Assembly: GCF_030013205.1 (NCBI RefSeq)
Contig: NZ_CP122648.1
From: Escherichia coli
GTDB lineage: Bacteria; Pseudomonadota; Gammaproteobacteria; Enterobacterales; Enterobacteriaceae
Length of the DNA stretch: 64,000 bases
Direction: 5' to 3' (one strand)
The position numbers were made by a program. Numbering within the stretch: the first letter of the stretch is position 1; each line of letters opens with the position of its first letter. This document shows positions 30,701 through 33,700 of the stretch, piece by piece.

Positions 30701-33700
30701 CGAGAGAGGATATGGAAGGGTGGGCTGAGAGAGTGGTTAGAGAGCAATTTACGCATTAAAGGAATGACTGAAAGAGCCTGTAAACCCTTTTGTGTAAGTG
30801 CTTTTGCCGGTCAGTTAAAGGTGGCCATTTAAACGGTCACCAAATTCGATCATAAAACGGTTCATGGCCGGCTTCCAGTTGCGGATCGGCATCGTCCATT
30901 TCTTGGTCGCCGCCTGGATAGCCAGGTACACCACCTTCATCGCTGATTCGTCCGTAGGGAACACCTTGAGTTCATATTAATGGAATTTTCTACAAATAGC
31001 CTCCGTGGTTTTGAGGGGGGATTACAGACGATCCATAGTAGTAATCCAATGAGTTCTTGAGCGCGGCGACATGTTTGGACGCCTTGGCAAAAATTAGAGC
31101 CTGCTTGAAGTGCAGGCGAGCACGTGCTTGGACGATTGATCCATTCGCGGTCAAAAACTCAATCTTGGATGACAGCGTGTCAGGAAATCCAATATCGAAG
31201 TCCCGCCCCGTGTCAAAGTAGGGCATTTCATGATCAAAGGACGAAGCTTCCCAGGCCACTTCCCTAATATTCCAGCCGCTAGAAACAAGATTTCGTACGA
31301 CTTCATCAACTTTTTTGCTTTCCAACTTGTCACAAAGTGCATAGGCAAGAGCTTTGGCGGCAGACACGTGCGTTTCCTCTTAAACATAGGTCGAACGGAT
31401 ACCCGAGGCAAAGCGGAGCATTAGTCCCAAAGCATCTCCGGTAGATCCGGAGGCTCCATACTGAAGGCATGGCATCTTGGGCATTGATATTTGAAACTTC
31501 TCTCTAGATAGCAGGGATTTCTTGGCCTTGCCTCATGCTGATAGCTTGTAAATATCACACGATCCTTAGCCCCACAAAGTGAGCATACTCCGTAGCTTTC
31601 ATTTATAGAAATCGTCGTTAGATTGTCGCAGCATGTGCACGTTCCGACTATTTGCTCAGGAAGCATCGCCATACCTTGGCCTAGGTAAAGAAGATCAGAC
31701 TCGTAGCCACATCGGTGGCAACTGAGCTTGTACGCAATGCCCATCTGGTTGTCTCACCTGAATCGTAACGTCAGAGCTATTCATCCATCCATTCGGCATC
31801 AATGTATGCCACTAAGCCGACCAGCTGACCGTTTGGACTGAAGTATGTTGCCTGCACCCCACTTGACATCTCATCAATACCACCGCACTGCGCTAGGCGC
31901 CGGTCCCACTTGCCCACAGAAGCGTCAGGATCGGCTGAGTTCCCCAAGACCCTTGTGAGCCATGCCTCCTTTAACTCAACCTCTCGAATGATTGCGTCGG
32001 CCAGCTCCTCCGCGTTATCTAGTTCGACATAGTCTGGAATTCGGACGTACGTTCTGAACACAGCTGGATACTTACTTGGGCGATTGTCATACATGACATC
32101 AACAATGTACCCGTTTGTGTAACCGTCTCTTGGAGGTTCGTATGACACTAGTGGTTCCCCTCAGCTTGCGACTAGATGTTGAGGCCTAACATTTTATTAG
32201 AGAGCAGGCTAGTTGCTTAGATACATGATCTTCAGGCCGTTATCTGTCAGGGCAAGCGAAAATTGGCCATTTATGACGACCAATGCCCCGCAGAAGCTCC
32301 CATCTTTGCCGCCATAGACGCCGCGCCCCCCTTTTGGGGTGTAGAACATCCTTTTGCCAGATGTGGAAAAGAAGTTCGTTGTCCCATTGTTGGCAATGAC
32401 GTAGTAGCCGGCGAAAGTGCGAGACCCATTTGCGCTATATATAAGCCTACGATTTCCGTTGCGACTATTGTCGTAATTGGATGAACTATTATCGTAGTTG
32501 CTCTCAGAGTTGTCGTAATTTGATGGACTATTGTCGTAATTGCTTATGGAGTTGTCGTAGTTGCTTGGAGAAATGTCGTAGTTGGATGGGGAGTAGTCAT
32601 AGGGAAGACGAGCTTCATCCACTAAAACAATTGGCAGGTCAGCAAGTGCCTGCCCCGATGCCATCGCAAGTACGAGGCTTAGAACCACCTTCAACAGATC
32701 GCGCATAGTCTTCCCCAGCTCTCTAACGCTTGAGTTAAGCCGCGCCGCGAAGCGGCGTCGGCTTGAACGAATTGTTAGACATTATTTGCCGACTACCTTG
32801 GTGATCTCGCCTTTCACGTAGTGAACAAATTCTTCCAACTGATCTGCGCGCGAGGCCAAGCGATCTTCTTGTCCAAGATAAGCCTGCCTAGCTTCAAGTA
32901 TGACGGGCTGATACTGGGCCGGCAGGCGCTCCATTGCCCAGTCGGCAGCGACATCCTTCGGCGCGATTTTGCCGGTTACTGCGCTGTACCAAATGCGGGA
33001 CAACGTAAGCACTACATTTCGCTCATCGCCAGCCCAGTCGGGCGGCGAGTTCCATAGCGTTAAGGTTTCATTTAGCGCCTCAAATAGATCCTGTTCAGGA
33101 ACCGGATCAAAGAGTTCCTCCGCCGCTGGACCTACCAAGGCAACGCTATGTTCTCTTGCTTTTGTCAGCAAGATAGCCAGATCAATGTCGATCGTGGCTG
33201 GCTCGAAGATACCTGCAAGAATGTCATTGCGCTGCCATTCTCCAAATTGCAGTTCGCGCTTAGCTGGATAACGCCACGGAATGATGTCGTCGTGCACAAC
33301 AATGGTGACTTCTACAGCGCGGAGAATCTCGCTCTCTCCAGGGGAAGCCGAAGTTTCCAAAAGGTCGTTGATCAAAGCTCGCCGCGTTGTTTCATCAAGC
33401 CTTACGGTCACCGTAACCAGCAAATCAATATCACTGTGTGGCTTCAGGCCGCCATCCACTGCGGAGCCGTACAAATGTACGGCCAGCAACGTCGGTTCGA
33501 GATGGCGCTCGATGACGCCAACTACCTCTGATAGTTGAGTCGATACTTCGGCGATCACCGCTTCCCTCATGATGTTTAACGCCTGAATTAAGCCGCGCCG
33601 CGAAGCGGTGTCGGCTTGAATGAATTGTTAGGCGTCATCCTGTGCTCCCGAGAACCAGTACCAGTACATCGCTGTTTCGTTCGAGACTTGAGGTCTAGTT

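What the first reader, a model, noticed from the sequence alone, without database searches (positions are those of the whole stretch)
31421..31744. Small Cys-rich cassette protein with four CxxC pairs
Seen in sequence: the 107-aa product has CHRC, CTCC, CSLC and CPRC motifs spaced like a zinc ribbon. It is one of three uncharacterised genes at the distal end of the integron array.
Basis: seen in the sequence. Interest (0 to 1): 0.25.

Follow-up and report, generated by a model that had tools for sequence, protein, structure and literature searches.

The report
Tn7 ybfB: small double zinc-ribbon protein
The ORF is the already named but never characterised ybfB gene of transposon Tn7: a real, conserved 107-residue protein with eight invariant cysteines that probably hold two metal ions, related to integron cassette genes common in sewage metagenomes; its function is still unknown.

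Summary
ORF 31421..31744 (-) encodes 107 aa with CHRC, CTCC, CSLC and CPRC. The DNA is 100% identical to Tn7 (R721), so this is the published ORF ybfB. It lies in the block orfX(ybeA)-ybfA-ybfB-ybgA between aadA1 and tnsE, in a Tn7 inserted after glmS.

It is a real gene, although RefSeq/PGAP left it unannotated in the two records opened. An exhaustive HMMER search found about 12 diverged full-length relatives (25-50% identity). All eight Cys of the four CxxC pairs are invariant; the two extra Cys are not. dN/dS is 0.13-0.21. AlphaFold2 gives a confident all-beta model (pLDDT 89) with the CxxC pairs at hairpin turns. No solved or viral structure matches significantly, and no Pfam model reaches its cut-off.

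"Cassette" holds only in part. The Tn7 copy has no attC on either side, and the last attC remnant lies after orfX. One related lineage (44% identity, at least 349 contigs, several named sewage or wastewater) is a true single-gene cassette with attC on both sides. The best reading is a fossil cassette encoding a two-metal Cys4 protein that acts alone as a binding module. No partner gene recurs. Modest interest.

The parts
31421..31744 (-). ybfB coding sequence, 107 aa, ATG start, TAA stop
   Evidence: ORF list. 100% identical to Tn7 of R721. Full-length diverged homologs all start with M-G, which supports this start codon. dN/dS is 0.13-0.21 among the closer homologs.
31754..31759 (-). Shine-Dalgarno-like AGGTGA, 9 nt before the ATG
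   Evidence: Read directly from the sequence. Not tested.
31709..31720 (-). CxxC pair 1 (C9-H-R-C12), followed by G13-Y14
   Evidence: Invariant Cys. Lies between strands 2-8 and 15-22 of the AF2 model.
31628..31639 (-). CxxC pair 2 (C36-T-C-C39); the extra C38 is not conserved
   Evidence: Invariant C36 and C39. Lies between strands 31-36 and 42-46.
31574..31585 (-). CxxC pair 3 (C54-S-L-C57)
   Evidence: Invariant Cys. Constant 14-residue spacing from pair 2 in nearly all members.
31472..31483 (-). CxxC pair 4 (C88-P-R-C91), with invariant P89
   Evidence: Invariant C-P-x-C. Lies between strands 83-87 and 94-96. Codons checked against the plus-strand sequence.
31777..32148 (-). Context: ybfA (123 aa), 32 nt upstream of ybfB, with no attC between them
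   Evidence: No family match. No homolog next to any ybfB relative.
30990..31367 (-). Context: ybgA (125 aa), 53 nt downstream of ybfB, with no attC between them
32182..32204 (.). Context: collapsed attC stub after orfX (TCTAATAAAATGTTAGGCC), the last recognisable attC remnant of the array
   Evidence: Read from the sequence. Weak match to the attC model, 9.2 bits, E = 2.2. orfX/ybeA is called a pseudo-cassette in PMC8876359.
32719..32782 (-). Context: aadA1 attC, the last intact attC of the array
   Evidence: Inverted repeat I2. Folding scan. Model R1 gives 85.6 bits, but this was a training sequence.

Best explanation
The ORF is the real protein-coding gene ybfB of Tn7. It encodes a soluble, cytoplasmic, all-beta protein of 107 residues. 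Its eight invariant cysteines form four CxxC turns that most likely bind two metal ions in Cys4 sites (Zn2+ is likeliest), giving a compact double zinc ribbon. The two halves look like an old internal duplication, so the likelier arrangement is site 1 = C9/C12/C36/C39 and site 2 = C54/C57/C88/C91. A nested arrangement (1+4, 2+3) is not excluded.

The gene belongs to a rare, unnamed family. One lineage of that family is a single-gene integron cassette with its own attC. The Tn7 copy has no attC and sits past the last attC remnant. It is therefore best read as a fossil cassette fused into the fixed block orfX-ybfA-ybfB-ybgA. On this reading IntI could no longer move it, and it is presumably transcribed by read-through from the cassette promoter.

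The protein has no catalytic motif and no recurrent partner gene, and family members have pI values of 4.6-8.1. I infer that it acts alone as a small metal-stabilised binding module for a protein or nucleic-acid target, not as an enzyme or as part of a multi-gene system.

Shown: the gene is real, the Cys are conserved, the fold prediction is confident, attC is absent here and present in relatives. Inferred: metal binding, site pairing, cassette origin, mode of action.
For: Identity with Tn7 and the published names.

Real gene. Full-length relatives of 93-129 aa at 25-50% identity. Invariant M1, G2, C9, C12, G22, C36, C39, C54, C57, C88, P89 and C91 in 15 sequences, while C38 and C78 vary. dN/dS of 0.13-0.21.

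Duplication. N half against C half by hhalign gives P = 7e-5, aligning pair 1 with pair 3 and pair 2 with pair 4.

Cassette origin. attC sites directly flank the P0016/P0029-type relative in L006, L020, L021, L024-L033, and on one side in the partial copies L022 and L023. That protein was seen on at least 349 contigs.

No attC near ybfB in the window.

Acts alone. No ybfA/ybgA/orfX relative and no shared neighbour family across the different lineages. No hit in PADLOC for the Tn7 protein, and in PHROGs none for the Tn7 protein and only scattered single-member hits above E = 7e-4 across the family. Family pI values of 4.6-8.1.
Confidence: 0.6

Rival explanations
1. The ORF is not a functional gene in Tn7. 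It is a chance or decaying reading frame, which is why NCBI's pipeline leaves it unannotated.
For: PGAP annotates nothing at this position in the two RefSeq E. coli records opened. No CDS is listed under the match in the 30 plasmid records shown, although that gene table is incomplete. No curated family matches. One relative (L021) carries a premature stop.
Against: Full-length relatives keep the length, the M-G start, the eight Cys and the C-terminal W/F-D. dN/dS is 0.13-0.21. AF2 gives pLDDT 89. A Shine-Dalgarno-like site lies 9 nt before the ATG. The frame is intact and at least 99% identical in 104 E. coli records and 44 of 45 plasmid records.
Confidence: 0.05
2. ybfB works as one part of a three-gene module with ybfA and ybgA, for example a toxin-antitoxin or defence system, rather than alone.
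For: The three ORFs are on the same strand with spacers of 32 and 53 nt and no attC between them. ybfA and ybgA have clear ribosome-binding sites and ybfB a weaker one. ybgA has a very weak HicA-like PADLOC hit, E = 0.04.
Against: No locus holding a diverged ybfB relative (L005-L034) has a ybfA, ybgA or orfX relative. The cassette-borne relative is a single-gene unit with attC on both sides. No PADLOC match for ybfA or ybfB.
Confidence: 0.12
3. The Cys4 sites bind iron or take part in redox or sulfur chemistry (rubredoxin-like electron carrier or thiol-based sensor) rather than holding structural zinc.
For: Pair 1 reads C-x-x-C-G-Y and pair 4 reads C-P-x-C. From memory, these resemble the two rubredoxin knuckles. 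The best Pfam hit is Zn_ribbon_LapB, described as a rubredoxin metal binding domain, at 21.6 bits against a cut-off of 25.7. One diverged relative (P0046) lies directly after a TusA sulfur-carrier gene and beside an AhpC/TSA peroxiredoxin.
Against: No match reaches a rubredoxin-type model cut-off. By my own knowledge, four CxxC pairs in about 100 residues fit tandem zinc ribbons better than the ~54-residue rubredoxin. The TusA context is a single case, and the other contexts are unrelated to redox.
Confidence: 0.15
4. The family acts on DNA recombination or repair, or on phage-host conflict. Examples would be a RecA/SOS modulator, or a small phage-defence or anti-defence protein, as now reported for cassettes of unknown function in mobile integrons.
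For: One relative (P0019) sits between recA and recX. The cassette arrays that carry the P0029-type relative also carry DarT/NADAR and AAA_15/21 ATPase cassettes. bioRxiv 10.1101/2024.07.02.601719 reports that cassettes of unknown function in mobile integrons encode phage defence.
Against: The recA-recX context is one contig of 1.5 kb. No PADLOC hit for the Tn7 protein, and no PHROGs hit for it and only scattered single-member hits above E = 7e-4 in the family. No relative in 50,697 phage genomes or in IMG/VR. That preprint has no occurrence of 'class 2', 'zinc', 'cysteine' or 'orfX'.
Confidence: 0.1

Closest known systems
ybfB of Tn7 (class 2 integron distal ORFs orfX/ybeA-ybfA-ybfB-ybgA; plasmid R721, NC_002525)
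   Same: The DNA is 100% identical over 2.1 kb, in the same order and orientation. Papers list these ORFs as usual at the 3' end of class 2 integrons, with function unknown (PMC3332091, PMC6240043, PMC8858760).
   Different: Nothing differs in the gene itself. This Tn7 copy lacks the dfrA1 cassette and has a variant left end.
Two-zinc-ribbon small proteins such as RNA polymerase subunits RPB9/RPA12/TFS
   Same: About 110 residues, all-beta. By my own knowledge these also carry four CxxC pairs forming two Cys4 zinc ribbons in tandem. They appear among the top, non-significant, sequence and fold matches.
   Different: E-values of 0.14-3 by profile and 0.98-4 or more by Foldseek, with TM 0.15-0.23. 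There is no acidic hairpin motif and no RNA polymerase context. Homology is not shown.
Rubredoxin-type knuckle domains (Pfam Zn_ribbon_LapB PF18073) and Cys_rich_CPCC (PF14206)
   Same: C-x-x-C-G and C-P-x-C knuckles. These are the best Pfam scores, and four of eleven family members hit PF18073.
   Different: Scores are below the curated cut-offs (21.6 against 25.7; 15.4 against 24.5). The family has four knuckles, not two, and no membrane anchor or TPR as in LapB.
Integron gene cassettes of unknown function (gcu)
   Same: The P0016/P0029-type relative (44% identity) is a cassette of about 390 bp with attC on both sides, in dense same-strand arrays. The Tn7 gene lies downstream of attI2 on the cassette strand.
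   Different: The Tn7 copy has no attC and no core site at its borders. By my understanding of integron recombination, IntI therefore cannot excise it.

Membership tests
Tn7 ybfB (published ORF) | Sequence identity and the same position between ybfA and ybgA, past aadA1/orfX and before tnsE | tested here: met
   100% identity over window 30700-32800 to R721 and many other Tn7 copies. Gene order confirmed.
Integron gene cassette | An attC recombination site at the 3' end of the gene | tested here: not met
   attC covariance model R1 with filters off over 29000-37000: only the aadA1 and sat2 attC sites and a 9-bit stub after orfX. The 53-nt spacer to ybgA is shorter than any attC found here, 56 nt or more.
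Integron gene cassette | The 5' boundary is a GTTRRRY core site left by the preceding attC | tested here: not met
   The 32 nt between the ybfA stop and the ybfB ATG hold only GTGAGAC, one mismatch from the core, and there is no R1 match.
Integron gene cassette | Lies in the array downstream of attI/intI, on the cassette strand | tested here: met
   intI2 pieces at 34584-35582 (+). sat2, aadA1, orfX, ybfA, ybfB and ybgA are all on the minus strand.
Integron gene cassette | Relatives occur as mobile single-gene cassettes in other arrays | tested here: met
   attC on both sides of the P0016/P0029-type gene in L006, L020, L021 and L024-L033. Seen on at least 349 contigs. Only this one lineage was shown to be a cassette.
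Zinc ribbon (classical, Cys4) | Two CxxC knuckles, each at the turn of a beta hairpin, 10-35 residues apart | tested here: met
   Pairs 1, 2 and 4 lie between two strands of the AF2 model; pair 3 lies before strand 63-65. The spacings are 23, 14 and 30 residues.
Zinc ribbon (classical, Cys4) | Match to a curated zinc-ribbon model above its gathering score | tested here: not met
   All Pfam hits are below their cut-offs. NCBIfam gives none. The PDB profile search gives nothing better than E = 0.075.
Zinc ribbon (classical, Cys4) | Tetrahedral Cys4 geometry and bound metal | not testable with these tools
   Model coordinates are not exposed, and no metal prediction tool is available. This needs ICP-MS or a solved structure.
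Rubredoxin | A ~54-residue domain with CxxCG...CPxCG that matches a rubredoxin model | tested here: not met
DnaJ-type cysteine-rich domain | Four CxxCxGxG repeats | tested here: not met
   The motifs read CHRCGYES, CTCCDNLT, CSLCGAKD and CPRCHAFS. None has the GxG.
Known phage-defence or phage protein families | Match to a PADLOC or PHROGs model | tested here: not met
   No PADLOC hit for the Tn7 protein. No PHROGs hit for it, and only scattered single-member hits above E = 7e-4 in the family.

The most novel reading that the evidence does not exclude
The YbfB family is a new kind of small two-metal protein, spread by integrons, that modulates RecA/SOS or another step of DNA recombination or phage-host conflict. 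One member is inserted between recA and recX, and others travel in cassette arrays rich in defence genes. If so, Tn7 would carry an unrecognised host-manipulating factor next to its transposition genes in thousands of clinical isolates.
Probability: 0.07. Interest if true: 0.6.

Novelty: new member of a known kind. Interest (0 to 1): 0.3.

Why it matters
Tn7 and its class 2 integron are among the best studied and most widespread resistance elements. This copy occurs in 102 of 5,426 complete E. coli genomes and on plasmids of at least ten genera. Even so, the two RefSeq records I opened do not call this gene, and no paper I found assigns it a function.

This work shows that it is a conserved protein with a confident, apparently unclassified double zinc-ribbon fold. 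It also shows that a related lineage is an abundant integron cassette, with several of the sampled contigs named sewage or wastewater. That gives a concrete, cheap target for expression, metal analysis and phage or SOS phenotyping. It also supports the view that the 'conserved 3' region' of class 2 integrons is partly a frozen remnant of older cassettes.

This is a tidy annotation gain, not a surprise. Small Cys4 proteins of unknown function are common.

Tried and rejected
- The word-indexed homolog search with the single protein found only Tn7 copies and frameshifted assemblies. The diverged family appeared only in the exhaustive HMMER search.
- The profile search (A1) added P0026-P0028 only.
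- The search for related loci with A1 failed because no stretch was conserved enough. Sub-alignments A4 and A5 found no relative in 100,044 species-representative genomes or in IMG/VR. The JGI metagenome scan gave four loci, all of the P0016 type.
- tblastn against 50,697 phage genomes found nothing.
- The PDB profile search gave nothing better than E = 0.075. NCBIfam and PADLOC gave no hit for the protein, PHROGs gave none for it and only scattered single-member hits above E = 7e-4, and Rfam gave nothing in the region.
- The idea of a conserved 5' leader, based on a shared TGAGACAAC between Tn7 and L005, was rejected. The alignment of seven upstream regions shows no conservation before the ATG.
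- The idea that the spacer before ybfB is a collapsed attC (CTCTGAC...GTGAGAC) was not retained. Model R1 does not score it, and the two arms are not complementary.
- The idea that the 142-aa ORF always upstream of the P0029-type cassette corresponds to ybfA or ybgA was rejected. BLASTP finds no similarity.
- The test of independent half-domains was inconclusive. AF2 of residues 1-50 alone gives pLDDT 76 against about 93 for the same residues in the whole protein.
- Hansson et al. 2002 (PMC134885) is not held in the library.

Full report
**1. What is there**

The window holds a Tn7 transposon inserted at the classical site after glmS.
- glmS lies at 21044-22873. The Tn7 right end TGTGGGCGGACAA starts at 22899, 26 bp after the glmS stop.
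- tnsA to tnsE follow on the plus strand, 23033-30759.
- On the minus strand, read from the integrase side, the order is: intI2 (split into two ORFs, 34584-35141 and 35256-35582, plus strand), sat2, aadA1, orfX/ybeA (32209-32706), ybfA (31777-32148), the ORF in question (31421-31744), ybgA (30990-31367), and a remnant of an IS256-family transposase (30815-30964).
- Window 30700-32800 is 100% identical to Tn7 on plasmid R721 and to many other copies.
- The ORF is therefore the published ybfB. [quoted passage not shown] A full-text search for 'ybfB' found no functional study of the Tn7 gene.

**2.

The ORF has an ATG start and 107 codons. The motifs are C9HRC12, C36TCC39, C54SLC57 and C88PRC91, with two further Cys at positions 38 and 78. 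With this composition, four CxxC pairs arise in 0.4% of shuffles.

**3. It is a real gene, although the pipeline misses it**

- In the two RefSeq E. coli records I opened, PGAP annotates nothing at this position, and ybfA is called in only one of them. No CDS is listed under the match in the 30 plasmid records shown.
- The fast homolog search returned only Tn7 copies and error-ridden assemblies.
- The exhaustive HMMER search of 1.84 billion cluster representatives found full-length relatives of 93-129 aa. A profile search added three more.
- In a 15-sequence alignment at 25-50% identity to the Tn7 protein, the invariant positions are M1, G2, C9, C12, G22, C36, C39, C54, C57, C88, P89 and C91. 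The two Cys outside the motifs are not conserved, and the C-terminal W/F-D is nearly constant.
- Among the closer pairs, dN/dS is 0.13-0.21.
- AGGTGA lies 9 nt before the ATG.

Chance or a decaying frame is therefore very unlikely.

**4. Structure**

- AlphaFold2 with the 11-sequence alignment gives mean pLDDT 89.3 and pTM 0.77, with four of five models in agreement. The model is all-beta with nine strands.
- CxxC pairs 1, 2 and 4 sit at the turn between two strands. Pair 3 sits just before strand 63-65. The only weak stretch, residues 71-80, is the length-variable linker.
- Several of the weak matches are entries I recognise as zinc-binding beta domains (Pirh2 C-terminal domain, MCM N-terminal domain, RPB12, bL33, rubrerythrin, RPA12/RPB9, Mis18/Yippee), alongside unrelated ones such as PliC and RseB.
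- Pfam gives only sub-threshold hits. All but one (Cytochrome_C7) are to zinc-ribbon, zinc-finger, rubredoxin-type, Cys-rich or DUF models. NCBIfam gives none, and the PDB profile search gives nothing better than E = 0.075.
- The N half aligns to the C half with P = 7e-5, matching pair 1 to pair 3 and pair 2 to pair 4. This suggests an internal duplication of one ribbon.
- The N half predicted alone keeps its strands but drops to pLDDT 76. The halves probably pack into one globule, and the pairing of the sites stays open.
- I could not read coordinates, so metal geometry was not measured. Metal binding is an inference from invariant Cys4 x 2 and the hairpin positions.

**5. Is it a cassette?**

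I built an attC covariance model from the aadA1 and sat2 attC sites of the window and three attC sites of locus L006.

In the window the model finds only those two sites and a 9-bit stub right after orfX (32182-32204, TCTAATAAAATGTTAGGCC). This fits the literature's 'pseudo-cassette ybeA' (PMC8876359). Nothing is found around ybfA, ybfB or ybgA. The spacers of 32 and 53 nt are shorter than any attC found here. The Tn7 copy therefore fails the defining test of a cassette.

Elsewhere the picture differs. The P0016/P0029-type relative (44% identity) has attC directly on both sides:
- L006, L020 and L021, where the copy carries a premature stop and sits in a small attC cluster inside a 158-kb contig of 65% GC.
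- L024-L033.
- L022 and L023, which are partial copies at contig ends with attC on one side.

That protein was seen on at least 349 contigs, and several of the ten sampled records are named sewage or wastewater. The arrays are dense with attC: 51 matches in 29 kb, all on one strand.

Other lineages lie outside recognisable arrays:
- between recA and recX (L012);
- after a TusA gene and beside AhpC/TSA (L034);
- after a 1036-aa SACS-domain gene (L007);
- in a run of small same-strand ORFs (L014-L017).

The family therefore moves both as a cassette and otherwise. For the Tn7 copy, which lies in an integron on the cassette strand just past a collapsed attC, loss of attC (a fused or fossil cassette) is the simplest origin. 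It is not proven.

**6. Partners and function**

- No locus holding a diverged relative (L005-L034) has a relative of ybfA, ybgA or orfX. No neighbour family is shared between lineages.
- A 142-aa ORF always precedes the P0029-type cassette, but it is unrelated to ybfA and ybgA.
- PADLOC gives no hit for the Tn7 protein. PHROGs gives none for it and only scattered single-member hits above E = 7e-4 across the family. Phage genomes and IMG/VR give no relative, and neither do 100,044 species-representative genomes.
- Family pI values range from 4.6 to 8.1, so the protein is neither a strongly basic nucleic-acid binder nor a very acidic DNA mimic.
- There is no signal peptide or hydrophobic segment in the sequence, and no catalytic motif.

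My best-supported mechanism is therefore a stand-alone, metal-stabilised binding module. The target is unknown. The rivals are a module with ybfA and ybgA, an iron or redox role, a RecA/SOS or phage-conflict role, or no function at all. They are listed with their tests.

**7. Comparison and verdict**

The ORF is a member of 'Tn7 ybfB' by identity. It works like a double zinc ribbon but belongs to no curated zinc-ribbon, rubredoxin, CPCC or DnaJ-type family. As it stands in Tn7 it is not an integron cassette, though one related lineage is.

The gene was already catalogued. What is added here:
- evidence that it is real and under selection;
- the invariant Cys4 x 2 signature;
- a confident fold with no close structural neighbour in the libraries available;
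- the link to an abundant environmental cassette.

Interest is modest (0.3).

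Noticed in passing
window 33628-35582: This Tn7 copy lacks the dfrA1 cassette. sat2 (33628-34152, minus strand) is followed after about 430 bp by intI2, which is split into two ORFs (34584-35141 and 35256-35582), as expected for the interrupted intI2. 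The array is therefore sat2-aadA1 only. PMC8858760 called this array a first report in 2022.
   Followed up: partly
window 36487-36518: The Tn7 left terminus reads TGTAGACGGACAAAATAGTTGGGAATTGGGAGG. I recalled the canonical end as TGTGGGCGGACAAAATAGTTGGGAACTGGGAGG. The right end at 22899 matches that canonical sequence. The changed terminal bases might affect TnsB binding or cleavage.
   Followed up: partly
window 30815-30964 (-): A C-terminal remnant of an IS256-family transposase lies between ybgA and tnsE. PGAP calls it a pseudogene. It may mark the event that cut off the distal end of the old cassette array.
   Followed up: no
window 32209-32706 (-) and 32182-32204: orfX/ybeA encodes a 165-aa protein with a hydrophobic, signal-peptide-like N-terminus and about eight tandem S-x-S-N-Y-D-N repeats. 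It is followed by a collapsed attC stub, TCTAATAAAATGTTAGGCC. No family matches it in Pfam, NCBIfam or PADLOC.
   Followed up: partly
RefSeq records NZ_CP171869 (L003) and NZ_CP033762 (L004): PGAP annotation of identical Tn7 DNA is inconsistent. ybfA is called in one genome and not in the other, and ybfB is called in neither.
   Followed up: partly
L012 2-1444: A ybfB relative (P0019, 40% identity) sits between the 3' end of recA and recX on a contig of 66% GC. From memory, recA and recX are usually adjacent.
   Followed up: partly
L034 411-1551: A 93-aa relative (P0046) lies directly after a TusA sulfur-carrier gene and beside an AhpC/TSA-type redoxin. No attC is detected. This hints at a thiol or redox context for that lineage.
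   Followed up: no
L024-L033, L006, L020, L021: In every locus of the P0016/P0029-type cassette where the upstream gene is complete, it is a 142-aa ORF of unknown function (151 aa as called in L006), with an attC between the two. In L029, L032 and L020 the upstream gene is cut or was not examined, but the intervening attC scores the same. The neighbours further out differ between loci. The two cassettes seem to travel as a pair.
   Followed up: partly
L026 740-1946, L027 536-1742, L028 2517-3986: The arrays sampled from metagenomes carry DarT plus NADAR (DarTG-like) genes and an AAA_15/AAA_21 ATPase as cassettes. This fits reports that integron arrays store defence and toxin-antitoxin genes.
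   Followed up: no
L005 4940-4991 (-): An attC-like site very close to the aadA1 attC (34.5 bits, not a training sequence) lies 1 kb from the closest ybfB relative (P0014, 50% identity), but on the opposite strand. Whether that relative is inside an inverted cassette is unresolved.
   Followed up: partly
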